A DNA stretch of 64,000 nt from an uncultured Hyphomicrobiales bacterium (lineage in GTDB: Bacteria; Bacteroidota; Ignavibacteria; Kapaibacteriales; UBA2268). The position numbers and the translations under genes were made by a program. Positions 8,070 through 49,110 of the stretch are shown piece by piece. Under the pieces are notes generated by a model that had not been told where the DNA came from, ran no database searches, and saw only the letters and a list, made by a program, of their open reading frames with translations. Each line of letters opens with the position of its first letter. Positions within the stretch are counted from its first letter, which is position 1. Location: NCBI GenBank assembly GCA_964472015.1, contig CAYYIP010000007.1, positions 7,219 through 71,218 on the forward strand, in the 5' to 3' direction.

Positions 8070-9881
8070 ATGAAATTTTACAAATTAATAGCATTAATTA
8101 TTTGTTTTATAATATTATCAAGTAATATATCTGCTCAAGTTTATGAAGTTGAGCCTAATGTTGCTAATTGTGAATGTGGTTCTTTAACTATGACTGAAAA
8201 ACAAAAAATTATTAATTTTATTAATAAGATAAGAAAGCATCATAAACTTGGTGAAATTGTTTGGTCAAATAAGCATGATAAACGTGTTCAAAGTGCTGCA
8301 TTAAGTATGTTAGCAACAGGTATTATCTCTCATAGTCCAGTTTCTGGGAAATGCTCGAGTGCAGATTCTGATTCAGGACGTGCAAGTTCAAATTTATCTA
8401 TTAAGTCGTCTACTGTTAATGATGGTTTTGGTTCAATAGAACACATTATTGGTTGGTTAAAAGACAATCATAGTCAAACGCAGCCTCATTCGGTTGGTCA
8501 TAGACGATTAATTATTAATCCATTTTTATCAGCTACTTGTTTAGGTAAAGCTGAAGGCACACATCCTACTAATACTGGTTGGTATTTAGGAACAGCTGCT
8601 TTATGGGGTATAAATACTGATGTAATGGCGCCGTCTACTTGTGCAAATGATTTTGTTGCCTATCCTTATGAAAATTATCCTATTGATTGGGTAGATAAAA
8701 CATTCTATTTAAGTTTCTCACCATTAGCAGATCCATCTTGGTGGTGGGGTGGTAAGAACAAAGTTGCTTTTGATAATGCAGTTATTACTATGACTACTGA
8801 AAGTGGGCAAGCAGTCCAAGTATCAGATAAAGCATATGATTATGATGCATGGGGATGTTTTATAAATAATTTATCGTGGAAAGTAGTGGGTGGTCTAAAA
8901 GATGAAGTTAAGTATTTTGTTAAAATTAGTAATGTTATAGTAAATGGTTCTACACGTGAATATTCATATTGGTTTAAACTTACTAATCAAGATGACGATC
9001 CTGTAGCTGTAGCACCAGAGCTTATTTTGCCTGTGAATGGTGAACAAAATATTGATTTAACTAATCCTGTTTGTTTTAGATGGAAACGGGGACAAAATCT
9101 TACTAAGTATGAATTACAATTATCATATAGTAAAGATTTCACTTATATTTTTGATAATTTTGAGACTTCAGATACAAATATGTATGTTTCAACATTAGTT
9201 AGTGGACAACAATTCTATTGGCGAGTAGCAGGATTTCCTAGTGGTAGTGATACTCCACTGTATTCTAGTGTATGGAGTTTTACAACAAAAGCAGAAGTAA
9301 TAGATCCGCCTTTAATTTTAAATCCAAAAAATAATGCTGTAAATGTTTATCAACGAGAAGTATATAGGTGGACTAATATTAATTCTGCGATTCATTATAG
9401 GATTCAAATTTCTGAAAATGAAACAAATAAAATTGTTGTTGATGAAAGTGAAATTGTTGATACAACTTATTATTTAACAGCAGAACAAGCACTAGAAAAA
9501 AATACATCTTATAGTTGTCGTGTGAGTGCTAATTTATCTAATGGTACTGCAACTGCTTGGTCAGATATTGTGAAATTTACAACAGGAGATAATTATACAT
9601 CTATAAATGAACCGGAACAGCTTGTTTCTTCTATTATTTATCCAAATCCAACAAGAATGTCTTTTGCTGTATCAATGACTTTGGAATCTCCTGCAAATAA
9701 TTTGACTATTAGTATTACAGATGTTAACGGTAGGATTATCAAGAAAGAAAATTATGGTTATGTTACTGCTGGTAATCTAACTTATTATTTTAATACTGGT
9801 AAATTAAGTAATGGTATTTATAATATTATTTTAACTATTGATGGTAAATCAAAAGTTGAAAAATTAGTTATTTATAATTAA
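8070..9881 (+). CDS. Secreted CAP/SCP-like domain protein with Ig/FN3-like repeats and a T9SS C-terminal sorting domain
   Basis: Signal peptide; block GHRRLIINPFLSATCLG; C-terminus IYPNPTRMSFAVSM..LSNGIYNIILTIDGKSKVEKLVIYN (Por_Secre_tail). Confidence 0.65.
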   Translation: MKFYKLIALIICFIILSSNISAQVYEVEPNVANCECGSLTMTEKQKIINFINKIRKHHKLGEIVWSNKHDKRVQSAALSMLATGIISHSPVSGKCSSADSDSGRASSNLSIKSSTVNDGFGSIEHIIGWLKDNHSQTQPHSVGHRRLIINPFLSATCLGKAEGTHPTNTGWYLGTAALWGINTDVMAPSTCANDFVAYPYENYPIDWVDKTFYLSFSPLADPSWWWGGKNKVAFDNAVITMTTESGQAVQVSDKAYDYDAWGCFINNLSWKVVGGLKDEVKYFVKISNVIVNGSTREYSYWFKLTNQDDDPVAVAPELILPVNGEQNIDLTNPVCFRWKRGQNLTKYELQLSYSKDFTYIFDNFETSDTNMYVSTLVSGQQFYWRVAGFPSGSDTPLYSSVWSFTTKAEVIDPPLILNPKNNAVNVYQREVYRWTNINSAIHYRIQISENETNKIVVDESEIVDTTYYLTAEQALEKNTSYSCRVSANLSNGTATAWSDIVKFTTGDNYTSINEPEQLVSSIIYPNPTRMSFAVSMTLESPANNLTISITDVNGRIIKKENYGYVTAGNLTYYFNTGKLSNGIYNIILTIDGKSKVEKLVIYN

Positions 9882-10985: not shown

Positions 10986-11059
10986 GCACCCGTAGCTCAA
11001 TTGGATAGAGTATCTGACTACGGATCAGAAGGTTATGGGTTCGACTCCCTTCGGGTGTG
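10986..11059 (+). tRNA. tRNA-Arg, anticodon ACG
   Basis: Manual cloverleaf. Acceptor gcacccg/cgggtgt (G1-U72); D arm gctc-aattggata-gagt; anticodon stem tctga/tcaga with loop cTACGga; T arm atggg-ttcgact-ccctt; 74 nt; no encoded CCA. Confidence 0.85.
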
Positions 11060-11119
11060 CGTTTTTAATACTCTGTATAATATGTGATAATTTATATAAA
11101 ATAAAAGTATATTAAATAT

Positions 11120-11228: not shown

Positions 11229-11439
11229 AAAAATCTGCATAATTCATCTGTTCTAAAAAGAATTAGACAGAGTAGAAAAAGGAAGCTTTATAATAGAGCG
11301 AATAAGAGAAATTATTAAAAATTGCAATTAATTTATTAAAAATTACAATTAATTTATTAAGAATTACAATTAAATAGTATTCGTGCAGCAAATAGAGTAG
11401 CTGCAAAAGGTGTTATACATAAAAATAATCTAATATATA
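11229..11439 (+). pseudogene. Decayed tandem duplicate of rpsT
   Basis: Near-identical to the rpsT 5' region (ctaaaaagaattagacagag.agaaaaaggaagctttataatagagc.aataaga) but with no start codon, an inserted triplicated 21-bp motif (aattgcaattaatttattaaa..) and two internal deletions. The 3' deletion lies between direct repeats cataaaaataat. Confidence 0.8.
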
Positions 11440-11464
11440 TATATTAGATTATATGCATCCGTAG

Positions 11465-11538
11465 CTCAATTGGATAGAGCATCTGACTTCGGATCAGAGG
11501 GTTGGGGGTTCGAGCCCCTCCGGGTGTGCTATATTTTT
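11465..11538 (+). tRNA. tRNA-Arg, anticodon TCG (UCG)
   Basis: Paralogue of the 10986 tRNA: the same acceptor and D arm apart from 2-3 substitutions, anticodon loop cTTCGga, and a G-richer T arm ggggg-ttcgagc-ccctc; 74 nt. Confidence 0.8.
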
Positions 11539-38815: not shown

Positions 38816-38889
38816 AATATTGTTTATTTAGAAAAAAATTGTATTGTTAATATTATAATAATAAAATTTGTAAAGTATAATAAAAATTA

Positions 38890-40467
38890 ATGTTAAAAAA
38901 ACAAGCAAAAGAAAAAGCAATAGAAGTAGCCTTGTGGGAAACAGCAAATAAATTGCGTGGAAGTGTTGAACCTTCGGAATATAAGCACGTGGTATTGGCG
39001 TTGATTTTTTTGAAGTTTGTGAACGATAAATTTGAGGAGCAACGACAAAAACTAATTAATTGTGGCAAAGAGAAATACATTGAAAACTCGGACTTTTACA
39101 ATAAGGACAAAGTCTTTTTTCTAAAAGAAGAGACCCGTTGGAAATATATTGTTAGTAAAGCTCGCCAAAACGATATTGCGTTGATAATTGATTCCGCTTT
39201 ACACACTATAGAAAAAGACAATAAAGTTCTGAAAGGTGCATTGCCTGATAACTATTTTTCACGTCTTGGACTTGATACCTCTAAATTAGCTGCTCTTATC
39301 AGCGAAATAGATAGCATATATATACTCAAGGACAAAGAGCAAGATGTTATTGGACGTATTTACGAGTATTTTCTGAGTAAGTTTGCCATTGCTGAAGGAA
39401 AAGGGAAAGGTGAGTTTTACACGCCCAAAAGCATTGTAAATTTAATTGCCGAGCTGATAGAGCCTTACAAAGGTTTTATTTATGATCCATGTTGCGGTTC
39501 GGGCGGAATGTTTGTGCAGTCTATCAAGTTTATTGAAGCACACCACGGCAATCAAAAAGAGGTTTCCATTTACGGACAGGAATATACGAACACAACGTAT
39601 AAATTGGCGAAAATGAATCTTGCCATTCGAGGCATTTCTGCTAATTTAGGCGAAAAAGCCGCTAACACTTTTAGCAACGATTTACATAAAGATTTAAAAG
39701 CCGATTTTATTATGGCAAATCCTCCTTTCAACCAAAAAGATTGGCGAGCAGAAAACGAACTTTTAGACGATCCTCGCTGGAAAGGTTACGAAGTACCACC
39801 CAAAAGCAACGCTAATTATGGTTGGATACTTCACATGGCATCTAAGCTTTCGGGAAATGGTGTAGCAGGATTTCTTTTAGCAAACGGAGCATCGAGCGGT
39901 GGCGGTGATGAGTATAAAATACGTAAACAGTTGATTGAAAATGATTTGGTTGAAGCTATCTTGATTTTACCACGAAATATGTTTTACACAACCGATATAA
40001 GCGTAACTCTTTGGATATTGAATAAAAACAAAAAAGAATACGTAAGGGCGTATGGCGATATACCTCAACGAAATTACCGAAATCGACAAAAAGAAATTCT
40101 TTTTATGGATTTGCGGGAAATGGGCGAGCCGTTTGAGAAAAAGTACATACAATTCTCTGAAAAAGATATTAGGAAAATAGCTGATAATTATCATAACTGG
40201 CAATGTACGGGTGAATTGAATTCGCCATATCAAGATATTCCAGAATTCTGCTATTCCGCAGGTATAGAAGAAATTAGAGAGAAAGATTATTCGCTTGTAC
40301 CGAGCAGATACATAGAATTTGTAAATCGTGATGAACAGATTGATTTTGACGAAAAAATGAAAACTTTACAGCAGGAAATTGGTAAATTATTACAAGAAGA
40401 AAAAAAATCGCGAGAAGAATTGTTAGCTGTTTTTAAAAATTTAGGTTATAAAATTGAGTTAAAATGA
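38890..40467 (+). CDS. hsdM: Type I restriction-modification system methyltransferase subunit
   Basis: HsdM N-terminal domain (LWETANKLRG); SAM motif DPCCGSGGMF; catalytic NPPF (IMANPPFNQKDW). G+C is clearly above the genome background. Confidence 0.9.
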   Translation: MLKKQAKEKAIEVALWETANKLRGSVEPSEYKHVVLALIFLKFVNDKFEEQRQKLINCGKEKYIENSDFYNKDKVFFLKEETRWKYIVSKARQNDIALIIDSALHTIEKDNKVLKGALPDNYFSRLGLDTSKLAALISEIDSIYILKDKEQDVIGRIYEYFLSKFAIAEGKGKGEFYTPKSIVNLIAELIEPYKGFIYDPCCGSGGMFVQSIKFIEAHHGNQKEVSIYGQEYTNTTYKLAKMNLAIRGISANLGEKAANTFSNDLHKDLKADFIMANPPFNQKDWRAENELLDDPRWKGYEVPPKSNANYGWILHMASKLSGNGVAGFLLANGASSGGGDEYKIRKQLIENDLVEAILILPRNMFYTTDISVTLWILNKNKKEYVRAYGDIPQRNYRNRQKEILFMDLREMGEPFEKKYIQFSEKDIRKIADNYHNWQCTGELNSPYQDIPEFCYSAGIEEIREKDYSLVPSRYIEFVNRDEQIDFDEKMKTLQQEIGKLLQEEKKSREELLAVFKNLGYKIELK

Positions 40468-42440
40468 ACGAAAAGCAAATAAATCCTTTTGAATTAGATG
40501 ATGAGTATGTTATATACTCACTCATAAACGAAGAATTTTTACCGGAAGAGTACCATGAACTTGAATATAAATCCGGTAAAGATGGATTTCCAAAAGAGAT
40601 TTGGAAAACATATTCAGCCTTTGCCAACACAAATTCTGGTATTATTATCATTGGTATAAAAGAGAAAAGAGGTGTTTTTCTAATTGAGGGATTGACAGAA
40701 GAACAAATTTCAAATTATAAAAAGCATTTTTGGGACAGCTGCAACAATCCGAATACCGTTAGTGTCAATCTTTTGAGTAACGAAGATATAAAAGTAATTG
40801 AGACAAATTCAAAAAAACTGTTAGTTATTCGAGTTCCTTTCGCTCATCGTACCAAAAGACCGGTTTTTCTTACACGAAATCCATTTGGAAACACGTACAA
40901 ACGCAACTACGAAGGCGACTACAGATGTACTGATGACGAAGTAAGAAGAATGTTAGCTGAAGGCGGCACAGAACTTAAAAGAGATAACTTGCTTTTAGAA
41001 AATTTCACGATAGACGATTTAGATCCTGTTAGTATTCGTCAGTTTCGTCAATTGTTTTCATCTACAAGACCGGGGCACCCTTGGCTTGCTTTAGAAGATA
41101 AAGACTTACTAAAGAAACTCGGAGCTTATCGCATTGACCGAAAAACTGGACAAGAAGGAATTACGCTTGCTGGGCTGTTAATGTTTGGCAAAGGAGACAG
41201 CATACGAGAACAAGATGCTTTACCTGATTACTTTCCTGATTTTAGAGAGCGTTTGTCAATAGATGAAAAAGTGCGATGGACAGATCGTATTTATCCCGAC
41301 GGAACTTGGGAAAGTAATTTACTTCAATTTTATTTGAAAGTATTGCCCAAATTATCATCTACATTACCTAAACCATTTCGCTTAGATAAAGATGAACGTG
41401 TTGATGAAACACCTGCTCATATTGCGTTGCGTGAAGCTTTTGTAAATACATTGGTGCATACTGATTATTTGTTAAGTGGTAACATTATCATTGAACTTGA
41501 TACCGAACAATTTGTATTTTCAAATCCCGGTACATTACTCGTTTCTTTGGAACAATATTATGCGGGAGGAGTGAGTGAGTGCCGTAATCCTGCATTACAA
41601 CAAATGTTTATGCTGATTGGTCGTGCTGAAAAAGCTGGTAGTGGAGTGGACAAAATTATGTCAGGCTGGCAAGATTCTCATTGGCGAAAGCCTTTTCTTG
41701 TGTTAGAAAACCGACCTGATAAAGTTAAACTCACTTTACCTATGTTTAGCGTGTTGCCTGAACAAGTACTAAACGAGTTAAATACTATTTATGGCGATGT
41801 GAGTCATTTTAGTTCCGACGAACTAACTGCACTTTCTTTCTGTCTGATAGAGGGTTCAATTTCCAACCACCGCTTGCAATATGTGTTAAATATGCACAGT
41901 TCAGACATTACGAAAATGCTTAAAAAATTGTGTGTGGGTGATTATTTAGAAGCTGAAAATTATGGTCGCTGGACTACTTATAAAATTAAACATAAGGTTG
42001 CAAGCTCAGGCGGAAAGGTTGACACCTCAGGCGAAAAGGTTGCAAGCTCCGATAGAAAGGTTGCAACCTCAGGCGAAAAGGTTGCAAGCTCTGGTGGAAA
42101 CCTTGCAAGCTCTGGTGGAAACCTTGCAAGCTCTGGTGGAAACCTTGCAAGCTCTGGTGGAAACCTTGCAAGCTCAGGCGGAAACCTTGCAAGCTTAACT
42201 GAACTTCCTAAAAGGATAAGTATAGAAAAAATGGAAGATATAATTATGCGAATTTGTAAGGATAATTACGTTAAAAAAGAAGACCTTGCAACATTATTGA
42301 ACCGTTCAGAAAATTATATAAGAAATGAAATTTTACCTAAAATGATAAAAGAGAAAAAAATAGAGAAAAAATATCCGTTTACGCTTAATCATCCTGAACA
42401 AGCTTATAAAACTACAGAGGAATATGCAGAAAAACTATAA
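40464..42440 (+). CDS. COG2865-type Schlafen-like ATP-binding protein / putative transcriptional regulator (AlbA_2 + HATPase_c_4-like + C-terminal HTH), inserted between hsdM and hsdS
   Basis: N-terminal ELEYKSG..IWKTYSAFANTNSGIIIIGIKEKRG matches AlbA_2. TLVHTDYLLSGNIIIELDTEQFVFSNPGTL matches HATPase_c_4. ATGA overlap with hsdM. An internal 7-aa repeat region sits ahead of the C-terminal domain. Confidence 0.75.
   Translation: MNEKQINPFELDDEYVIYSLINEEFLPEEYHELEYKSGKDGFPKEIWKTYSAFANTNSGIIIIGIKEKRGVFLIEGLTEEQISNYKKHFWDSCNNPNTVSVNLLSNEDIKVIETNSKKLLVIRVPFAHRTKRPVFLTRNPFGNTYKRNYEGDYRCTDDEVRRMLAEGGTELKRDNLLLENFTIDDLDPVSIRQFRQLFSSTRPGHPWLALEDKDLLKKLGAYRIDRKTGQEGITLAGLLMFGKGDSIREQDALPDYFPDFRERLSIDEKVRWTDRIYPDGTWESNLLQFYLKVLPKLSSTLPKPFRLDKDERVDETPAHIALREAFVNTLVHTDYLLSGNIIIELDTEQFVFSNPGTLLVSLEQYYAGGVSECRNPALQQMFMLIGRAEKAGSGVDKIMSGWQDSHWRKPFLVLENRPDKVKLTLPMFSVLPEQVLNELNTIYGDVSHFSSDELTALSFCLIEGSISNHRLQYVLNMHSSDITKMLKKLCVGDYLEAENYGRWTTYKIKHKVASSGGKVDTSGEKVASSDRKVATSGEKVASSGGNLASSGGNLASSGGNLASSGGNLASSGGNLASLTELPKRISIEKMEDIIMRICKDNYVKKEDLATLLNRSENYIRNEILPKMIKEKKIEKKYPFTLNHPEQAYKTTEEYAEKL
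41994..42196 (+). repeat. In-frame 21-bp tandem repeat (about 9.7 units), with 4 consecutive perfect copies of aaccttgcaagctctggtgga
   Basis: Units read directly from the sequence (aaggttgcaagctcaggcgga ... aaccttgcaagctctggtgga x4 ...). They encode KVASSGG / NLASSGG heptads. The repeat creates spurious ORFs in other frames and on the opposite strand. Confidence 0.9.
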
Positions 42441-43551
42441 GCGATTAGGCGATTATATACAAGAATTCAATGTCCGTAACACAGATTTAGCTATTACCAA
42501 TCTTTTAGGTGTGAGTATAGAAAAAACTTTTATACCATCCGTAGCAAATCTTAATGGCGTGGATTTATCTGTATATAAAATATTGAAAAAAGACCAGCTA
42601 GCTTGTAATTTAATGATCGTAGAGCGTGATAAAAAACTTCCTGTAGATTTGTATAGAGAAGAAAAACCAGCTATAGTTTCTTCTGCATATTATGTTTTTG
42701 AGCCAAAAAACAAAGAAGAATTATTACCTGAATATTTAATGATGTGGCTTTTTCGACCTGAAAGTGATAGGTATTTTGGTTTTATTAGTGGCGGAGATGT
42801 AAGAGGTGGAATTACTTGGGAGACATTTTGCAGTCTTCCAATTAAAGTCCCAAAAATTGAAAAACAACGAGAAATCGTAAAAGAATACAAAACAGTAGAG
42901 AGACGCATACAGATAAACGAAGAGCTCTGCAAAAAATTAGAAGAAACAGCACAAGCGCTATATAGAAAATATTTTGTAGAAGATATAGACCCAGAAAATT
43001 TACCGGAAGGGTGGAGATGGGGAAAGTTAGAGGAGGTTGCTAAGATTACAATGGGACAATCACCAGTGGGAGAAAGTTATAACACTGATGGAATTGGAGA
43101 AATATTTTATCAAGGTAGAAGCGATTTTGGAATGCGATTTCCCACAATTAGAATGTTTACAAATGAGCCTACCAAAATGGCTAAAAAAGATGATATTTTA
43201 TTAAGTGTTAGAGCACCTGTTGGGGACATAAATATTGCACCACACAATTGCTGTATTGGTAGAGGATTAGCAAGCATAAGAAACAAGAAAAAACAGAAGT
43301 CTTATATGTTTTATCTAACAAAAAATTTAGATACAATTTTTAATATAGCAGACGGAGCTGGAACAATCTTTGGAAGTATTAATAGAGATACACTTTTGAA
43401 TATTGACGTAATAATTCCTAATGAAGAAGTTATTCAATTATTTGAAAAAAAAGTTTCAACAATTGATAAGCTGTATGAATATAATGATATAGAAACGCAA
43501 AAGCTAAAAGAATTACTATCTTTGTTGTTGGCAAAGATGGGGAGAGAATAA
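42424..43551 (+). CDS. hsdS: Type I restriction-modification system specificity subunit
   Basis: Two target-recognition domains separated by, and ending in, the conserved HsdS helical regions (..EELCKKLEETAQALYRKYF.. and ..QKLKELLSLLLAKM). Overlaps the upstream gene by 17 nt. Confidence 0.8.
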   Translation: MQKNYKRLGDYIQEFNVRNTDLAITNLLGVSIEKTFIPSVANLNGVDLSVYKILKKDQLACNLMIVERDKKLPVDLYREEKPAIVSSAYYVFEPKNKEELLPEYLMMWLFRPESDRYFGFISGGDVRGGITWETFCSLPIKVPKIEKQREIVKEYKTVERRIQINEELCKKLEETAQALYRKYFVEDIDPENLPEGWRWGKLEEVAKITMGQSPVGESYNTDGIGEIFYQGRSDFGMRFPTIRMFTNEPTKMAKKDDILLSVRAPVGDINIAPHNCCIGRGLASIRNKKKQKSYMFYLTKNLDTIFNIADGAGTIFGSINRDTLLNIDVIIPNEEVIQLFEKKVSTIDKLYEYNDIETQKLKELLSLLLAKMGRE

Positions 43552-43557
43552 GAAGAT

Positions 43558-44076
43558 ATGAATTTTATTTTAAGATTTTTTTTTACAATTAGCGCTGTAT
43601 CTTTTTTTGTTGTTGTTTATTTAGTACAAAATAAGATAAATCCATTTGATGAGGTTCTTGGAAAATATGCGTGGTTAATTTATATAGTGTACGTACTTTT
43701 TCCATTTATACTGACTTGTATATCACTGCGAATTTGTAAATTATTAGCCAGAAACTCGATTAAAAAAATACAATCAATAGAACCATCGAATAATGATTTC
43801 CTTGCCACCTATCTTGCGTTCTTTTTTGTTGCATTAAGTATTAAAGGAACAATTACTTTTTGGATAGTATTTGGAATGACGGTTCTTTTTACTTTTGTTT
43901 CAAGAGTATCATACTTTAATCCGGTTCTTTTAGTATTTGGTTACAATTTTTATTATATAGTTACAGGGGAGAATGTAAAGATTATGTTAATTAGCAAACA
44001 AAAATTAAAAGCTCCGAATAATTTTGATCATAAAGATGTAGGACGCATCAATGATTATACATTTATAGATATTTAA
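43558..44076 (+). CDS. Hypothetical integral membrane protein (4-5 TM, 172 aa) inside the type I R-M locus
   Basis: Hydrophobic helices FFTISAVSFFVVVYLV, WLIYIVYVLFPFILTCISL, YLAFFFVALSI, FWIVFGMTVLFTFV and PVLLVFGYNFYYIV. No recognisable motif. Starts 7 nt after the hsdS stop. Confidence 0.6.
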   Translation: MNFILRFFFTISAVSFFVVVYLVQNKINPFDEVLGKYAWLIYIVYVLFPFILTCISLRICKLLARNSIKKIQSIEPSNNDFLATYLAFFFVALSIKGTITFWIVFGMTVLFTFVSRVSYFNPVLLVFGYNFYYIVTGENVKIMLISKQKLKAPNNFDHKDVGRINDYTFIDI

Positions 44077-44079
44077 AAT

Positions 44080-44889
44080 ATGGCAGAATTAATAGTAAAA
44101 TACAAATCTGAATACAAAAATGTATTGAAACAAGAAGACAATATTATTGAAAATATTGATCTAACTAATGTAGAACAAATAGATTTTACAACAAGCTATA
44201 AGCTTGAAGATAATGAATGGTTTAAAATTACTGATTTTAGCAATCAAGACTATGTTGTTGAAATATGTAATGAAAATTTCAGTACTGCAAGTCTCGTGCA
44301 AATAGTTAACAAGGAGTATGAAGATATTAAAGAAATAGTTATTTTGCAGAACGAGCAGATGCATTTCCAAAGGGTTACTCCTTCTTATTATGTAAATAAG
44401 AAAACTTTTTTAGACTATTCAGGAAGTCCCAAAGTAGTAGAACACAGAAAACAGATCGAGATAAAAAAAGAATCTGATGCTGTATATTTGTTAGAAACTG
44501 ACACATTGTTATTTAAAGATATATCTAAAATAAAACCTATTTTTAAAGGAATAGAGATGTTGCATCGAGAAGCAACACAAGAGGAAGTTAACACATTTAT
44601 GGAATATGATTTCATTTCAACGTTAAATTTTGACTCTAAACGTGTAGGTGTTCAAAATCGAAAAAGAATAGCTGATATTGGGGTAAAATATGCTAATCTT
44701 TCAAGCGAGAAACAAAAAGGACTAATAACTTATGCAAAAGAGAAATCAGGAATTGATATAGAGGATGGCAAATTTCTAATTAGAAATGATAACGATTTGA
44801 AAAACTTGCTTTACGCAATGGATCAACGTTATTATTATGCTGATATATATGAAGAAAATAGAATTGCTAACTCCATTCGTATTGTGTAA
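44080..44889 (+). CDS. Hypothetical soluble protein (269 aa), translationally coupled to the membrane protein
   Basis: Starts 4 nt after the upstream stop. No catalytic motif that I can recognise. Charged, Lys/Glu-rich. Confidence 0.55.
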   Translation: MAELIVKYKSEYKNVLKQEDNIIENIDLTNVEQIDFTTSYKLEDNEWFKITDFSNQDYVVEICNENFSTASLVQIVNKEYEDIKEIVILQNEQMHFQRVTPSYYVNKKTFLDYSGSPKVVEHRKQIEIKKESDAVYLLETDTLLFKDISKIKPIFKGIEMLHREATQEEVNTFMEYDFISTLNFDSKRVGVQNRKRIADIGVKYANLSSEKQKGLITYAKEKSGIDIEDGKFLIRNDNDLKNLLYAMDQRYYYADIYEENRIANSIRIV

Positions 44890-44960
44890 CGGGTTATTTA
44901 GCAAGTTCATATTATAAAGTAAAATACGGATTTATGAATTATTTTTAAATTAATATTTAA

Positions 44961-45926
44961 ATGATCAATTTTCATGCACATAATCGCAAAAGTATTCGTC
45001 TAAAAGGATACGATTATTCGCAAGAAGGATTGTATTTTATAACGATTTGTTGTCAAGATAAAATTTGTAGGTTTGGACATATTGAAAACGACGAAATGAT
45101 ATGTAACCAATATGGAATTGTGGCATATAATGAATGGATAAAAACGTCACAAATACGTTCCAATATTACGTTGCACGAATTTGTTGTAATGCCCAATCAT
45201 ATCCACGGTATTATTGAAATAAATCGCGATGCGGAATTATATTCCCAAAACCGTGGTTGCGAATTGCGTTCGCCAAATTGTAGTGGCGAATTGTATTCGC
45301 CCGTTCCAAAGGGCGTATTCGATACGCCCCAACAGCCCGATTTCGATACGTCCGTTCGTGGTTGCGAATTTTATTCGCCAAATTGTAGTGGCGAATTGTA
45401 TTCGCCCATTCCAAAGGGGGTATTCAATACGCCCCAACAGCCCGATTTTGATTTGTCCGTTCGTGGTTGCGAATTGCGTTCGCAAAATTGTGGTTGCGAA
45501 TTGCATTCGCCAAATTGTAGTGGCGAATTGTATTCGCCCATTCCAAAGGGGGTATCCGATACGCCCCAACAGCCCGATTTCGATACGTCCGTTCGTGGTT
45601 GCGAATTGCGTTCGCAAAATTGTAGTGGCGAATTGTATTCGCCCGTTCCAAAGGGGGTATTCGATACGCCCCAACAGATTGATTTCGATACGTCCCGATT
45701 GCGATCACCGTCGCAAACGGTTGGTGCCATCGTTCGCGGATACAAATCGGCGGTTACAAAACAATTGAATGCGTTGGGAATGACCGAAAAATTATGGCAA
45801 CGCAATTATTACGAACATATTATACGCAATGAACAATCATATATACATATTTCTGAATATATTCGCAACAATCCCATACAATGGATAAACGATAGATTTT
45901 ATGATTATGAAATTTACAGAAAATGA
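44961..45926 (+). mobile_element. IS200-like REP-associated tyrosine transposase (RAYT) whose ORF carries an in-frame insertion of a REP array
   Basis: N-terminal part with HuH motif VVMPNHIHGII. C-terminal part with the RAYT Tyr motif LWQRNYYEHIIRNEQSY. Together these make about 165 aa, the normal RAYT size. They are separated by about 150 aa encoded by palindromic repeats. Confidence 0.7.
45252..45700. repeat. Four tandem about 105-bp units (unit 3 carries a 27-bp internal duplication), each holding three REP-like hairpins (gcgaa-ttgcg-ttcgc; ggcgaa-ttgta-ttcgcc; gggcgtat-tcg-atacgccc)
   Basis: Direct reading: cgtggttgcgaattgcgttcgccaaattgtagtggcgaattgtattcgcccgttccaaagggcgtattcgatacgccccaacagcccgatttcgatacgtccgtt repeated 4 times with point differences. 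Open in several frames on both strands. Confidence 0.9.
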
Positions 45927-48900
45927 ATTAGAAAAGGCATTTATCAAATTATTAGAGCAAGAGGGCTATACGCATAGTGCAGGTGCTTCGGTATCACGTT
46001 CCTCAATGAACGAGGTGCTGATAAAAGAAGATTTGCGTAGGTTTTTGCATTCGCACTATAAGGCAGATGAGCTGACGGGAAACGAGGTAAATTTCATTAT
46101 CCAGCAACTTAACTCGCTTCCTGCCAGCGATTTATATGAAAGTAATAAACGGTTTATGCAGATGCTTTCAGACGGTTTTATTCTGAAAAGAGATGACCAC
46201 AAGCAGAAAGATCTTTACATTGAGCTTATCAACTATAGATTTTTGAAAAAAAATCTACATCTTAAAACAGAAAAATATACTTCTATAGTTGCGGAAAATA
46301 ATGACGACAATAACATCTACAGATTTGTAACTCAATTGGAAATCGTAGGGAATGAAAAACGTATTCCCGATGGAATTGTTTATGTAAACGGTTTACCATT
46401 AGTGGTTTTTGAATTTAAGACTCCCGTTAAAGAAGAGGTTACTATTTATGATGCTTACAAGCAACTTACGGTGCGTTATCGTCGCGATATTCCCGAACTT
46501 TTCAAGTACAACGCTTTTTGTGTTATCAGTGACGGCGTAAACAGCAAAGCAGGTTCATTGTTTGCCTCTTACGAGTTTTATTACGCATGGAGAAGAATAG
46601 CAAGTTTAGCAAAAGATGTTGACGGAATTGATAGTATGTTTACCCTAATTAAAGGAGTTTTCGACAAAAACCGTTTTCGAGACATACTTCGTAATTTTAT
46701 CTTTTTCCCCGATACAGAAAAAAATGAAAGTAAAATCGTTTGTCGTTATCCTCAATATTACGCTGCCCGTGCTTTGTTCGAAAATATCAAGCAAGCTCAA
46801 AAACCTCACGGCAACGGAAAAGGCGGAACCTATTTCGGAGCAACTGGCAGTGGCAAGAGCTTCACGATGCTTTACCTTACACGTTTGCTGATGAAAAGCG
46901 AACATTTTGCTAGTCCAACTATCGTACTTATTACAGATCGTACCGATTTAGACGATCAGCTCTCTGCACAATTTGTAAATGCCAAGAGATTTATAAGTGA
47001 TGATACAGTGCAAAGCGTTGAAAATCGTGCTGATTTACGCGAGAAGCTACAAGGCAGACAGAGCGGAGGTGTTTTTCTTACTACTATACAGAAATTTACT
47101 GAAGATACGGAATTGCTTACCGAACGCAATAATGTGATTTGTATTTCAGATGAAGCACATCGCACACAAACAAATCTCGATCAAAAAATCCGTATTACCG
47201 AACAAGGAGTTACTAAATCATTTGGCTTTGCTAAATATCTGCACGATTCTTTGCCTAATGCTACTTACGTTGGTTTTACTGGAACACCTATAGATGCTAC
47301 ATTAGATGTTTTCGGTCCGGTGGTAGATTCCTACACAATGACCGAATCAGTTAAAGATGAAATTACTGTGCGTATCGTTTACGAAGGCAGAGCTGCTAAA
47401 GTAGCTTTAGATAACAGTAAATTAGAGGAGATTGAACGTTACTACGAAGCAGCTGCGGAAGCTGGAGCTAACGAATATCAAATTGAGCAAAGCAAAAAAG
47501 AGACTGCTAAAATGAATGCTATTCTTGGCGACCCGAAACGTTTACAAAGTGTTGCCGAAGATTTTGTAGAACATTACGAAAAACGTGTTTCGGAAAAAGC
47601 AACGCTGAAAGGTAAAGCTATGTTTGTTTGTAGCAACAGAGAAATAGCTTATGATCTGTTTAAGCGTATTATTACACTTCGTCCCGAATGGAATGAAATA
47701 CGTGCAGCAGAAGAAGGAGCAGAACTTTCCGATAAGGATAAAAGGGAATTAAAACCTATAGAGCGAATAAAAATGGTAATGACACGGTCAAAAGACGACG
47801 AAAAAGAACTTTGGGATTTGTTAGGGACAAAGGAATATAGAAAAGAGCTTGACAGACAATTCAAAAATGAAAAATCTAACTTTAAAATAGCTATCGTGGT
47901 TGATATGTGGCTCACAGGATTCGACGTGCCTTTTTTGGATACAATTTATATAGACAAACCAATACAACAACATAATCTAATACAAACTATTTCGCGAGTA
48001 AATCGTCGAGTGGAAGGAAAAGATAAAGGGCTTGTGGTTGATTATATCGGCATAAAGAACAAGATGAATTTGGCACTTGCTCAATACGATAAAATTGAAG
48101 GTGATAACTTTGAAGATATTTCTCAATCACTTGTGATAATGCGAGAGCATTTGGATTCGTTGAAACATTTGATGCATACGTTCGACGATACAAAGTATTT
48201 TAAAGGTTCAAATTTAGAACAACTAAATACACTTAATTTGGCTGCTGAATTTGTACAACAAACCAAAGAAACTGAAAGCCGATTTATGGGACTAACAAAA
48301 CGTTTGAAAGCTGCTTATGATATTTGTGTGGGAAGCGAACAAATAACACAGAAAGATCGAGATTATGTACATTTTTATATAGCTATTCGTTCCATTGTTT
48401 TTAAACTGACTAAAGGCGATATTCCCGATGTGGTACAAATGAATAACCGAGTACGTCAGATGATTGAAGAAGCTTTACAAAGTGACGGTGTTGAGGAAAT
48501 ATTAAAAATTGGCGATGAAACTAAAAGTGAACAAGATTTGTTTGATGAAAAGTATTTGGCAAAAATCAATAAGATAAAGCTACCTAATACGAAAATTAAA
48601 CTCTTGCAGAAGCTCTTAGCAAAAGCTATCGGGCAACTGCGAAAAATTAATCGCATAAAAGGAATTGACTTTAGCCATCGAATGCAAAAGTTAGTGGATC
48701 AATACAACGACCGTTCAGTAAACGATATTTTGCGAAGCGAGGTATATGAAGAGATGGCTGAAAAACTTACCGCTATGATTTGGGATGTACACGAAGAATT
48801 TTATGCCGGCGAAAAGTTGGGAATTGATTTTGAAGAAAAAGCCTTTTACGATATTCTAAAAGAATTGTGTGTGAAATACGATTTTAAATATCCCGACGAC

Positions 48901-49110
48901 AAAATGATAAAGTTGGCTAAAAAAGTCAAAGAGCTAGTTGATTTTATAGCCAGTTATCCCGATTGGAATAAGCAAGAGAATATAAAATCAGAGTTGAAAG
49001 CTGGATTAATTGTGTTGCTTGATGAATACAATTATCCGCCTGTTGAACGAGATGAAGTTTATGTAGAAATTTTTGAACAAGCGGAGAATTTTAAGAAAAA
49101 TAGAGAATAA
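45901..49110 (+). CDS. hsdR: Type I restriction-modification system endonuclease subunit
   Basis: HsdR N-terminal domain (MKFTENELEKAFIKLLEQEGY); SF2 helicase motifs including Walker A GATGSGKS and DEAH (ICISDEAHRTQ); 1069 aa. Overlaps the RAYT 3' end by 26 nt. Confidence 0.9.
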   Translation: MIMKFTENELEKAFIKLLEQEGYTHSAGASVSRSSMNEVLIKEDLRRFLHSHYKADELTGNEVNFIIQQLNSLPASDLYESNKRFMQMLSDGFILKRDDHKQKDLYIELINYRFLKKNLHLKTEKYTSIVAENNDDNNIYRFVTQLEIVGNEKRIPDGIVYVNGLPLVVFEFKTPVKEEVTIYDAYKQLTVRYRRDIPELFKYNAFCVISDGVNSKAGSLFASYEFYYAWRRIASLAKDVDGIDSMFTLIKGVFDKNRFRDILRNFIFFPDTEKNESKIVCRYPQYYAARALFENIKQAQKPHGNGKGGTYFGATGSGKSFTMLYLTRLLMKSEHFASPTIVLITDRTDLDDQLSAQFVNAKRFISDDTVQSVENRADLREKLQGRQSGGVFLTTIQKFTEDTELLTERNNVICISDEAHRTQTNLDQKIRITEQGVTKSFGFAKYLHDSLPNATYVGFTGTPIDATLDVFGPVVDSYTMTESVKDEITVRIVYEGRAAKVALDNSKLEEIERYYEAAAEAGANEYQIEQSKKETAKMNAILGDPKRLQSVAEDFVEHYEKRVSEKATLKGKAMFVCSNREIAYDLFKRIITLRPEWNEIRAAEEGAELSDKDKRELKPIERIKMVMTRSKDDEKELWDLLGTKEYRKELDRQFKNEKSNFKIAIVVDMWLTGFDVPFLDTIYIDKPIQQHNLIQTISRVNRRVEGKDKGLVVDYIGIKNKMNLALAQYDKIEGDNFEDISQSLVIMREHLDSLKHLMHTFDDTKYFKGSNLEQLNTLNLAAEFVQQTKETESRFMGLTKRLKAAYDICVGSEQITQKDRDYVHFYIAIRSIVFKLTKGDIPDVVQMNNRVRQMIEEALQSDGVEEILKIGDETKSEQDLFDEKYLAKINKIKLPNTKIKLLQKLLAKAIGQLRKINRIKGIDFSHRMQKLVDQYNDRSVNDILRSEVYEEMAEKLTAMIWDVHEEFYAGEKLGIDFEEKAFYDILKELCVKYDFKYPDDKMIKLAKKVKELVDFIASYPDWNKQENIKSELKAGLIVLLDEYNYPPVERDEVYVEIFEQAENFKKNRE

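What the first reader, a model, noticed from the sequence alone, without database searches (positions are those of the whole stretch)
41994..42196. Perfect 21-bp in-frame tandem repeat inside the hsdM-hsdS-embedded Schlafen-like ATPase gene
About 9.7 units of a 21-bp repeat, including 4 consecutive identical copies of aaccttgcaagctctggtgga. They encode KVASSGG / NLASSGG heptads between the HATPase_c_4-like core and the C-terminal HTH-like tail. Perfect tandem copies of a multiple-of-three unit are classic substrates for slipped-strand mispairing. That would make the linker length between the two domains variable across a population without breaking the frame. The same DNA also reads as a QALVETL leucine-heptad repeat in another frame. 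Length-variable repeats inside a defence-island gene may be a tuning or phase-variation device.
Basis: seen in the sequence. Interest (0 to 1): 0.65.

Follow-up and report, generated by a model that had tools for sequence, protein, structure and literature searches.

The report
Length-variable repeat linker in Schlafen defence gene
A 21-base repeat inside a bacterial Schlafen-type anti-phage gene encodes a floppy linker whose length differs between almost identical strains, and its DNA is conserved even at silent codon positions, so it probably does more than link two domains.

Summary
Window 41994-42203 carries ten codon-aligned 21-bp units (KVASSGG / KVDTSGE / NLASSGG and variants) in frame in a 658-aa prokaryotic Schlafen protein. 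Its domain order is Slfn nuclease, GHKL ATPase, wHTH1, repeat, wHTH2. The gene lies between hsdM and hsdS.

AlphaFold2 predicts the repeat to be a disordered tether between two winged-helix domains.

Copy number does vary. Relatives in the same 90%-identity cluster have 3, 7, 10 or 13 units, always exact multiples of 21 bp. A 13-unit locus and a 3-unit locus are 99.98% identical over 11.6 kb of flank. The unit is a multiple of three, so this changes length only and is not on/off phase variation.

The repeat is a hallmark of the whole family, and it is also a recombination junction where the C-terminal wHTH cassette is exchanged.

One result was unexpected. Across 39 independently sampled genomes, the core AAGGTTG[CA][AC]ACCTC keeps invariant synonymous positions. 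The next third-codon position is fully randomised. Two other repeat classes behave the same way. This points to a constraint at DNA or RNA level. What reads the motif is unknown.

No alternative frame is consistently open, so the QALVETL reading is a by-product.

The parts
38890..40467 (+). hsdM, the type I methyltransferase subunit. Its stop overlaps the start of the next gene by 4 nt.
   Evidence: PF02384 N6_Mtase E=4.7e-103 and PF12161 HsdM_N. PADLOC MTase_I E=4.7e-148.
40464..42440 (+). Prokaryotic Schlafen gene of the 'pSlfn-HisKinase-HTH' / 'Schlatpase + HTH' class, 658 aa.
   Evidence: PF04326 at 46.9 bits (cut-off 25.3) and PF13749 at 38.4 bits (cut-off 26). 6928 homologues. Best solved relative is 3lmm.
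40548..40571 (+). Predicted nuclease motif E29-x4-E34-x-K36 (EYHELEYK).
   Evidence: Translation. E29, E34 and K36 are invariant in the 36-sequence alignment A1. The motif is defined in PMC13056530.
41484..41735 (+). GHKL-type ATPase core (HATPase_c_4), aa 341-424.
   Evidence: Pfam.
41814..41987 (+). Predicted winged-helix domain 1 (aa 451-508), ending in GRWTTYKIK.
   Evidence: AlphaFold2 secondary structure H451-463, H468-475, H479-491, E495-497, E505-508 with pLDDT about 65-85. Foldseek gives local matches to MarR/ArsR winged helices at probability 1.0; which of the two domains they align to was not resolved.
41994..42203 (+). The finding: ten 21-bp units encoding [K/N]-[V/L]-[A/D]-[S/T]-S-x-x heptads (aa 511-580). 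Each unit is a 14-nt conserved core AAGGTTG[CA][AC]A[CG]CTC plus 7 variable nt.
   Evidence: pLDDT 26-35 across aa 512-580. Codon-level conservation.
42222..42413 (+). Predicted winged-helix domain 2 (aa 587-650), carrying the NHPxQxY signature (LNHPEQAY).
   Evidence: AlphaFold2 H587-597, H605-612, H616-629, E633-635, E647-650 with pLDDT 73-89. It always follows KV[AD][TS]S arrays.
42424..43551 (+). hsdS, the specificity subunit. Its start overlaps the Schlafen gene by 17 nt.
   Evidence: PF01420 Methylase_S. PADLOC Specificity_I E=1.1e-64.
45901..49110 (+). hsdR, the restriction subunit.
   Evidence: TIGR00348 at 458 bits. PADLOC REase_I at 1259.7 bits.

Best explanation
The 21-bp array is a real, in-frame coding minisatellite. 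It encodes a disordered heptad-repeat tether that joins the C-terminal winged-helix domain (NHPxQxY type, the presumed sensor or nucleic-acid-binding module) to the body of a bacterial Schlafen tRNA-nuclease/GHKL-ATPase defence protein. That protein is embedded in a type I restriction-modification operon.

Because neighbouring units are identical or nearly so, the array gains and loses whole units. The inferred mechanisms are replication slippage and unequal recombination. Different strains therefore carry tethers of 3 to 13 heptads without ever losing the frame. The same homology makes the array a breakpoint where the C-terminal winged-helix cassette is exchanged between alleles.

The likely functional effect is inferred, not shown: tether length sets the reach or avidity of the winged-helix domains displayed on the ATP-driven Schlafen-ATPase oligomer, and so sets the threshold at which the nuclease is switched on. 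It does not work as an on/off switch.

In addition, the 14-nt core of each unit is held constant at synonymous positions across distant species. So the same DNA or its transcript is also under a sequence-specific constraint at nucleic-acid level. What reads it is not known.
For: Shown:
1. Repeat and frame.
2. The repeat lies in a segment with pLDDT below 35, between two well-predicted winged helices. Winged-helix fold matches come from Foldseek.
3. Members of the same 90% cluster are 609, 637, 658 and 679 aa long, which corresponds to 3, 7, 10 and 13 heptads.
4. L001 (13 units) and L007 (3 units) are 99.98% identical over 11,582 nt upstream and 99.7% over 8.2 kb downstream. The gene lengths differ by exactly 210 nt. 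The 13-unit allele was recovered from at least 6 assemblies and the 3-unit allele from 3.
5. The window and L011 are 98.6% identical and both have 10 units, but in a different order and composition.
6. Other clusters show 643/650, 636/650 and 627/634 aa.
7. All 120 closest homologues carry K-V-[AD]-[TS]-S-x-x arrays at this position. More distant family members carry other tandem repeats at the same place, mostly with a 7-aa period.
8. P0031 and P0161 are 92-96% identical up to mid-array, 48% in wHTH2, then 23/24 identical at the end.
9. In a paralogous family, a core that is 87-97% identical carries at least six different [repeat linker + wHTH] cassettes.
10. Codon conservation in 39 loci picked by an N-terminal peptide: K=AAG in 34/34, V=GTT in 34/37, A=GCA in 18/18, D=GAC in 20/21, T=ACC in 34/35. 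The third position of codon 5 carries 0.00 bits. None of 36 conserved K/V/A/T/D columns elsewhere in the gene reaches 90% of one codon.

From the literature: Ex4ExK Schlafen nucleases cleave tRNA and defend against phage, with C-terminal domains acting as sensors (PMC13056530). The GHKL domain drives ATP-dependent tetramerisation (bioRxiv 10.64898/2026.05.29.728809).
Against: - No read-level data were available, so variation within a single population was not seen. All comparisons are between assemblies, mostly short-read metagenome assemblies that can mis-size repeats.
- One lineage (cluster of P0007, 677 aa, on more than 100 contigs) shows no length variation. Its units are more degenerate.
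- Nothing shows that length changes activity. A purely tolerated, functionally neutral spacer would give the same polymorphism.
- The synonymous-site conservation is not explained by a peptide tether, so the explanation is incomplete.
Confidence: 0.7

Rival explanations
1. Dual-use element. Besides encoding the tether, each unit's 14-nt core is a cis-acting DNA or RNA motif read by a sequence-specific factor. The most economical candidate is the adjacent NHPxQxY winged-helix domain of the same protein. Examples would be a landing pad on its own gene, or a repeat array in its own mRNA that titrates or holds the nuclease latent, as the ToxI repeats do in type III toxin-antitoxin systems. Copy number would then set stoichiometry.
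For: - Synonymous positions of the core are nearly invariant across 39 genomes whose proteins are a median 67% identical in the N-terminal 500 aa. Codon identity at conserved T, A and V residues elsewhere in the gene is 0.29-0.33. The neighbouring third-codon position is random.
- A second array class occurs in Proteobacteria, Chlamydiae and Desulfobacterota, in genes of 36-61% G+C. It keeps TCC-NNA-CAT-AAG, with the third base of the x codon being A in 24/24 although the amino acid varies (V, P, L, I or E).
- A third class keeps the identical 12-nt unit AATGTTGCTAGT in five loci (Rikenella, Candidatus Rikenella, two Candidatus Alistipes and a Bacteroides MAG). Between the two most divergent of these and the other three, N-terminal identity is 59-72%.
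- The same AAG GTT GCA codons occur in a paralogous family sampled by protein, not by DNA.
- KV[AD][TS]S arrays are always followed by the NHPxQxY winged helix, in 38/38 of the paralogous family and in all complete members of the main family.
Against: - The core is always read in the same frame: 191 of 191 plus-strand occurrences inside the genes.
- It is absent elsewhere in the window. A 10-mer version is at chance level in 1.06 Mb of flanks, so there is no second operator.
- The period is not fixed (12, 15, 18, 21, 24 nt in different lineages), which argues against helical phasing.
- The RNA fold of the array is not unusually stable (z = -1.7; 10 of 200 shuffles fold as well).
- There is no Rfam match near threshold.
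- The link between array type and wHTH type could be simple physical adjacency.
Confidence: 0.3
2. Passive spacer. The array is a tolerated low-complexity linker with no length-dependent or sequence-dependent role, and its polymorphism is neutral minisatellite drift.
For: Predicted disorder. A wide range of copy numbers (2-13) and of repeat types is tolerated across the family.
Against: - The K-V-[AD]-[TS]-S motif is kept over homologues down to about 45% identity.
- Synonymous sites are conserved.
- A repeat linker of some kind is retained at this junction in most sampled members of two paralogous families.
Confidence: 0.15
3. Classical contingency locus. Slippage switches the gene, or the downstream hsdS, on and off.
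For: A hypermutable repeat in a restriction-modification operon. hsdS overlaps the gene's end by 17 nt, so their translation may be coupled.
Against: The unit is 21 bp. All alleles differ by multiples of 21 nt and keep the frame. No frameshifted allele was seen among close relatives.
Confidence: 0.03
4. Assembly artefact. The array, or its copy-number differences, were created by repeat mis-assembly.
For: Most compared contigs come from short-read de Bruijn assemblies. Some cluster members are truncated proteins (242-248 aa), and such truncation could come from contigs that break at or near the array; their position in the contigs was not checked.
Against: - The protein is identical in an NCBI record with a 114,750-nt contig.
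- The array is present in hundreds of independent assemblies.
- The longest perfectly periodic stretch is 94 nt.
- The 3-unit allele appears in three assemblies from two studies, and the 13-unit allele in at least six.
- By inspection of the units listed (not computed), the longest internal exact repeat of the 13-unit array is only about 55-60 nt, well below the k=127-141 used.
Confidence: 0.03
5. Overlapping gene. The +1 frame (QALVETL leucine heptads, ORF 41962-42198) or the minus-strand ORF 41986-42192 is translated, and dual coding explains the nucleotide conservation.
For: Both ORFs bracket the array in the window.
Against: Among 36 homologous arrays, the number that are stop-free is 18 for the +1 frame, 3 for +2, and 8, 21 and 11 for the three minus-strand frames. 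With the usual ACC codon the +1 frame reads R-L-[QT]-P, which puts a proline in every heptad. The constrained block is 14 contiguous nt followed by 7 free nt, not a codon-periodic pattern.
Confidence: 0.02

Closest known systems
Prokaryotic Schlafen proteins of the pSlfn-HisKinase-HTH architecture ('Schlatpase' + HTH). Sources: Nat Microbiol 2026, PMC13056530; bioRxiv 10.64898/2026.05.29.728809.
   Same: SLFN_AlbA_2 domain with the Ex4ExK motif, a GHKL/HATPase_c_4 domain, a C-terminal helix-turn-helix, and a defence-island context that includes type I R-M.
   Different: In term searches of both papers I found no mention of tandem-repeat linkers, their copy-number polymorphism or their codon-level conservation. 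The tested members were other architectures (Ig-like, pAgo fusions). No member of this HTH subfamily has a known trigger.
EcoR124I / EcoR124II HsdS TAEL repeat (12 bp, two versus three copies) (PMC3874165).
   Same: A short in-frame tandem repeat between two DNA-recognition modules in a type I R-M locus. Its copy number changes by unequal crossing-over and alters the spacing between the modules.
   Different: TAEL lies in a rigid coiled-coil helix of HsdS and has a proven effect (N6 versus N7 spacer). Here the repeat is a predicted disordered tether in an accessory protein, with 3-13 copies and no demonstrated effect.
PrrC anticodon nuclease embedded in the EcoprrI type Ic operon (PMC3874165).
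   Same: A latent tRNA nuclease gene inserted inside a type I hsd operon.
   Different: An unrelated protein family (PrrC has an ABC-ATPase-like N-domain). It has no repeat linker and a different position in the operon. Physical association of this Schlafen protein with Hsd subunits has not been tested.
In-frame coding minisatellites (VNTRs) of bacterial proteins. From my own knowledge: the 24-bp repeats in the X region of staphylococcal protein A, serine-aspartate repeats, alpha C protein.
   Same: Units are a multiple of three, whole units are gained and lost, and alleles differ in length between strains.
   Different: Those are surface proteins under immune or adhesive selection. This is a cytoplasmic defence enzyme, and the repeat core is conserved at synonymous sites across phyla.
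Type III toxin-antitoxin RNA repeats (ToxI/ToxN) and iteron/RepA winged-helix pairs. From my own knowledge; these are mechanistic analogies only.
   Same: Tandem nucleic-acid repeats that co-occur and co-vary with the protein encoded next to them. RepA-type initiators have two winged helices and bind arrays with a period of about 22 bp.
   Different: Here the array lies inside the ORF and there is no ToxN-fold toxin. No terminator is predicted between the array and the rest of the gene on the coding strand, and nothing suggests an origin function. Binding has not been tested.

Membership tests
Prokaryotic Schlafen (pSlfn), HisKinase-HTH architecture | SLFN_AlbA_2 (PF04326) domain above the Pfam threshold | tested here: met
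   46.9 bits against a cut-off of 25.3, aa 29-155.
Prokaryotic Schlafen (pSlfn), HisKinase-HTH architecture | Catalytic E-x4-E-x-K motif | tested here: met
   E29-YHEL-E34-Y-K36. All three residues are invariant in alignment A1. Motif as defined in PMC13056530.
Prokaryotic Schlafen (pSlfn), HisKinase-HTH architecture | GHKL / HATPase_c_4 (PF13749) domain following the Slfn domain | tested here: met
   38.4 bits against a cut-off of 26, aa 341-424.
Prokaryotic Schlafen (pSlfn), HisKinase-HTH architecture | C-terminal helix-turn-helix domain | tested here: met
   No Pfam hit. AlphaFold2 predicts two H-H-H-strand-strand winged helices, and Foldseek matches MarR/ArsR/CzrA at probability 1.0.
Prokaryotic Schlafen (pSlfn), HisKinase-HTH architecture | tRNA cleavage and protection against phage | not testable with these tools
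   Requires experiments.
Type I restriction-modification operon | HsdM, HsdS and HsdR genes present together on one strand | tested here: met
   The hsdM-gene-hsdS arrangement with overlapping stops and starts recurs in 22-25 of the 80 genome loci sampled; all of these encode proteins at least 62% identical to the window protein.
Contingency locus / phase-variable gene | Hypermutable simple repeat whose copy number differs between close relatives | tested here: met
   3, 7, 10 and 13 units within the same 90%-identity protein cluster; the 13- and 3-unit loci have 99.98% identical flanks and the 7-unit locus is 98.5% identical to them.
Contingency locus / phase-variable gene | A change in repeat number switches expression (frameshift or promoter spacing) | tested here: not met
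   The unit is 21 bp, and all alleles are in frame and full length.
Type III toxin-antitoxin (ToxIN-like) | Non-coding RNA repeat array upstream of, and separated by a terminator from, a ToxN/AbiQ-fold endoribonuclease gene | tested here: not met
   The array lies inside the ORF, with no terminator on the coding strand and no enrichment of terminator-like sites. The protein is a Schlafen/GHKL type.
Kiwa defence system (neighbouring genes, not the finding) | KwaA plus KwaB gene pair | tested here: inconclusive
   PADLOC KwaA E=7.9e-15 and KwaB E=7.7e-16. NCBIfam KwaA scores 26.9 bits, below its cut-off of 100.

The most novel reading that the evidence does not exclude
The repeat is a dual-coded element. 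Its peptide is a tether, and its 14-nt core (AAGGTTG[CA][AC]ACCTC here; CTCC-NN-ACATAAG in Proteobacteria; AATGTTGCTAGT in Rikenellaceae and a Bacteroides MAG) is a lineage-specific cis-acting DNA or RNA motif. The motif would be read by the winged-helix domain encoded immediately downstream, or by another part of the same protein. The Schlafen tRNA nuclease would then be titrated or held latent by repeats in its own gene or transcript, and released when host DNA or transcription is disturbed by phage. Copy number would act as an evolvable threshold. This would be a type III-toxin-antitoxin-like or iteron-like logic embedded inside an open reading frame.
Probability: 0.2. Interest if true: 0.85.

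Novelty: new variant of a known kind. Interest (0 to 1): 0.62.

Why it matters
Bacterial Schlafen nucleases were shown only in 2025-2026 to be anti-phage tRNases. In the survey of PMC13056530, HisKinase-HTH is the second most frequent domain composition (19.2% of prokaryotic Schlafens), and its trigger and regulation are unknown.

This work shows three things about the tether to the C-terminal winged helix in two families of this class:
- It is a rapidly evolving minisatellite.
- It marks the point where sensor cassettes are swapped.
- It carries a nucleotide-level signal that a peptide linker cannot explain.

That yields concrete experiments on how these proteins are kept silent and how their specificity diversifies: change the copy number, or recode the array synonymously. 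It also gives a practical marker. Copy number at this locus discriminates strains that are otherwise 99.98% identical.

Tried and rejected
- Overlapping ORF in another frame: no frame is consistently open in 36 arrays.
- Stable RNA structure: z = -1.7, not significant.
- Known RNA family: the best hit scores 29 bits against a gathering score of 54. At gathering thresholds the window has only 4 tRNAs.
- Promoter or terminator inside the array: counts do not exceed shuffles.
- A second copy of the core acting as an operator: none in the window. None was found outside the arrays in 1.1 Mb of homologous loci for the 12-mer, apart from the L066 pseudogene. The 10-mer is at chance level.
- Phage origin: no match in viral contigs.
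- Palindrome or hairpin constraint. AAGGTTGCAACCTT is a perfect palindrome, but the D variant and the NLAT units break it, and no compensatory codon pairs (AAA...ACT) are seen.
- Programmed -1 frameshift at A_AAG. The second array class has CAT AAG, which is not slippery.
- Silent-cassette shufflon. The 5'-truncated copies (end of wHTH1 + array + wHTH2) found in metagenomes stand alone or are deletion derivatives. None of the five loci examined had a nearby full-length partner.
- The metagenome scan for tandem cores also found arrays with periods of 17, 25, 30, 33 and 44 nt in non-coding or other contexts (L114, L123, L186, L194, L116, L143). Given the size of the database, these may be chance hits or REP-like elements, and I do not rely on them.
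- From memory, the core resembles an anticodon loop and the 16S rRNA 3' tail (ACACCUCC). These resemblances were noted but not tested and are not used.
- Exact look-up of the window protein's contig failed.
Full report
**1. The observation**

Window 41994-42203 holds ten codon-aligned 21-bp units: KVASSGG, KVDTSGE, KVASSDR, KVATSGE, KVASSGG, four NLASSGG and NLASLTE. They lie in frame in ORF 40464-42440, which is 658 aa long. Tandem Repeats Finder reports 41998-42195, period 21, 9.4 copies, score 221. This is the highest-scoring short-period repeat in the window.

Four identical copies exist only in a shifted register, and the perfectly periodic stretch is 42082-42175. The array is 52% G+C, in a gene of 37% and a window of 27%.

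**2. The gene and its surroundings**

The protein has these features:
- SLFN_AlbA_2 (aa 29-155) and HATPase_c_4 (aa 341-424), both above Pfam thresholds.
- The Schlafen nuclease motif E29-x4-E34-x-K36, invariant among homologues.
- Partial matches to the Schlafen-ATPase part of PADLOC pAgo models.

Its only sequence relative with a solved structure is 3lmm.

The gene sits between hsdM (4-nt overlap) and hsdS (17-nt overlap). Downstream follow a KwaA/KwaB pair, a REP-associated tyrosine transposase (RAYT) gene and hsdR. The island (38-49 kb) is 29-37% G+C by 2-kb window, against mostly 22-29% in the rest of the window.

Recent papers define this class as prokaryotic Schlafen 'HisKinase-HTH', which makes up 19.2% of bacterial Schlafens. 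These are tRNA anticodon-arm nucleases that defend against phage, with C-terminal domains acting as sensors (PMC13056530). A preprint calls the class 'Schlatpase' plus HTH. In it the GHKL domain drives ATP-dependent tetramerisation, and the module has been exchanged with type I R-M systems (bioRxiv 10.64898/2026.05.29.728809). In term searches of both papers I found no mention of repeat linkers.

**3. Where the repeat sits in the protein**

AlphaFold2 was run with a 36-sequence alignment. The overall model is modest (mean pLDDT 59.8). It predicts two winged helices, aa 451-508 and aa 587-650, with block-mean pLDDT of about 64-89. They are separated by aa 512-580 at pLDDT 26-35 with no secondary structure. 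Foldseek finds 3lmm and human SLFN14 for the body, and MarR/ArsR/CzrA-type winged helices locally at probability 1.0. The repeat therefore encodes a disordered tether between two winged-helix domains.

**4. Does copy number vary?**

Yes.
- The 90%-identity cluster that contains the window protein (P0126 is identical to it) has members of 609, 637, 658 and 679 aa. These carry 3, 7, 10 and 13 heptads.
- At DNA level the short arrays are clean subsets of the long one.
- L001 (13 units) and L007 (3 units) lie in the same chromosomal context (secA ... hsdM-gene-hsdS-RAYT-hsdR-permease). They are 99.98% identical over 11,582 nt upstream and 99.7% over 8.2 kb downstream. The genes differ by exactly 210 nt.
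- L010 has 7 units and is 98.5% identical.
- L011 is a relative of the window's own organism with the same flanking genes and 98.6% identity. It also has 10 units, but in a different order and composition.
- Other clusters show 643/650, 636/650 and 627/634 aa.
- One lineage with more degenerate units is fixed at 677 aa on more than 100 contigs.

All differences are multiples of 21 nt, so this is length polymorphism and not on/off phase variation.

A caveat applies. These are comparisons between assemblies, mostly from short reads. However, each allele recurs in several independent assemblies. By my inspection of the units, the internal exact repeats are far shorter than the k-mers used.

**5. 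The repeat is a family hallmark**

- All 120 closest homologues (61-95% identity; those with names are mostly Bacteroidota, plus Ignavibacteria) have K-V-[A/D]-[T/S]-S-x-x arrays at this junction. Motif spacing is 7 in 645 of 927 intervals, with 2-13 copies.
- In 80 genome loci chosen by an N-terminal peptide, and in 150 representatives at 50% clustering, more distant members carry other tandem repeats at the same position. Most have a period of 7 aa (LPGDSER, DPSLPVK, DSVHKDG and others). Some have periods of 4, 5, 6, 8, 10, 11 or 14 aa.
- A paralogous family lacks wHTH1. There, Schlafen-ATPase cores that are 87-97% identical carry at least six different [short tandem-repeat linker + winged-helix] cassettes.
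- KV[AD][TS]S arrays are always followed by the winged helix with the NHPxQxY signature.

**6. A recombination junction**

P0031 and P0161 belong to the same 90% cluster. They are 92-96% identical up to the middle of the array, 48% identical through most of wHTH2, and 23/24 identical at the extreme C-terminus. Deletion derivatives that keep only the N-terminal 20 aa plus array plus wHTH2 occur in the same hsdM-X-hsdS slot (L178).

**7. The unexpected result: conservation at synonymous sites**

The 39 loci were sampled without reference to the array. Their N-terminal aa identity has a median of 67% and a minimum of 44%.

| Motif residue | Codon in array (per-locus majority) | Usage in the rest of the same genes |
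|---|---|---|
| K | AAG, 34/34 | AAA 79% |
| V | GTT, 34/37 | GTT 36% |
| A | GCA, 18/18 | GCA 30% |
| D | GAC, 20/21 | GAT 71% |
| T | ACC, 34/35 | ACC 23% |
| S (codon 5) | TCA 13, TCC 10, TCT 7, TCG 7 | free |

The third position of codon 5 carries 0.00 bits of information, and the next codon's third position carries 0.07 bits. None of the 36 K/V/A/T/D columns elsewhere in the gene that are at least 90% conserved as amino acids reaches 90% of one codon. Pairwise codon identity at identical T, A and V residues is 0.29-0.33, which I read as synonymous sites near saturation.

Each unit is therefore a 14-nt constrained core, AAGGTTG[CA][AC]ACCTC, followed by 7 free nt.

The pattern repeats in other array classes:
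- A second class occurs in Gammaproteobacteria, Desulfobacterota and Chlamydiae, with related units in a Fibrobacterota MAG, in genes of 36-61% G+C. It keeps TCC (23/24), NNA (24/24, although the amino acid is V, P, L, I or E), CAT (24/24) and AAG (17/17).
- A third class keeps the identical unit AATGTTGCTAGT in five loci: Rikenella microfusus, a Candidatus Rikenella MAG, two Candidatus Alistipes MAGs and a Bacteroides MAG. Between the two most divergent of these and the other three, N-terminal identity is 59-72%; the latter three are 87-99% identical to one another.
- Two members of the paralogous family, chosen by protein sequence, again use AAG GTT GCA.

Homogenisation within an array cannot explain identity between species, because the adjacent free positions have diverged completely.

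**8. What reads the core?**

This is not resolved. The following were tested and found unsupported:
- An overlapping gene.
- Unusual RNA stability.
- Rfam families.
- Promoter or terminator content.
- Additional copies acting as operators.
- A viral origin.
- A hairpin constraint, since no compensatory codon pairs occur and the D and NLAT variants break the palindrome.

The core is always in the same reading frame (191/191), and its period differs between lineages.

The strict pairing of array type with the type of the adjacent winged helix fits recognition by that domain. It equally fits simple linkage.

**9. Verdict**

The phase-variation and alternative-frame ideas are not supported.

The most likely role is an evolvable tether and cassette junction for the sensor-like winged helix of a latent tRNA nuclease. 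The effect of tether length on function is inferred, not shown.

The synonymous-site conservation is well supported by the comparisons here (three array classes and a paralogous family). I found no description of it in the papers searched, and it remains unexplained. It is the part most worth an experiment.

Noticed in passing
window 44961-45926 (repeats at 45242-45695): The REP-associated tyrosine transposase (RAYT) ORF is 321 aa (NF047646, 63.7 bits, below its cut-off of 80). It contains an in-frame expansion of a G+C-rich repeat of about 105 nt. TRF reports periods of 105, 132 and 237 nt with scores of 363-781. Each unit is made of three short hairpin-forming palindromes, for example GCGAATTGCATTCGC and GGGCGTATTCGATACGCCC. 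The Ignavibacteria homologue (L001) is 218 aa, and its matching interval is about 309 nt shorter. This is a second length-variable coding repeat in the same island.
   Followed up: partly
window 43558-44889: A KwaA-like (172 aa) and KwaB-like (269 aa) pair, that is a Kiwa defence system, is inserted between hsdS and the RAYT gene, inside the type I operon. The Ignavibacteria version of the operon (L001) lacks it. The KwaA-like gene at least is present in L011, where the contig ends.
   Followed up: partly
window 42956-43493, compared with L011 6944-7581: The window and its close relative L011 are 98.6-99.1% identical on both sides, but show no similarity across the second half of hsdS (375 aa versus 408 aa). 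This looks like a swap of the target-recognition domain, which would change R-M specificity.
   Followed up: partly
window 38878-49102, compared with L001: The hsdM-Schlafen and hsdR segments are 94% and 91.5% identical in DNA to those of an Ignavibacteria MAG. That MAG's flanking genes are unrelated, and its locus G+C is 33% against 27% for the window. The island is also richer in G+C than most of the window. Together these point to horizontal transfer of the cassette.
   Followed up: partly
L178 9421-9846: Between hsdM and hsdS there is a 141-aa ORF that keeps only the first 20 or so residues, the KV[AD]TS array and wHTH2. The whole nuclease-ATPase-wHTH1 body is deleted, with the deletion ending at the array.
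   Followed up: partly
proteins P0321-P0440; loci L212-L214: In a gut Bacteroidales paralogue family, Schlafen-ATPase cores that are 87-97% identical carry at least six different linker-repeat types, each tied to a different winged-helix type. The repeat types are KVATSxx heptads and the tetrads GGKx, LSQx, VENx, VGDN, DTQx and STxK. The winged-helix types include NHPxQxY, PF21247, HTH_24/MarR and HTH_11. This indicates extensive swapping of C-terminal cassettes.
   Followed up: partly
L123 about 8100-8900; also L186, L194, L143, L116: Metagenome contigs carry the same 14-nt core in tandem arrays with periods of 25, 30, 33, about 32 and 44 nt. In L123 all three frames are open, and the core is read as KVATS, KGC[ND]L and RL[RQ]PH in turn. 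These may be unrelated REP-like repeats or chance hits in a very large database.
   Followed up: partly
window 11312-11373: An AT-rich 21-bp tandem repeat (3.0 copies, 95% matches, TTATTAAAAATTACAATTAAT) lies between two tRNA-Arg genes (10986-11060 and 11455-11529).
   Followed up: no
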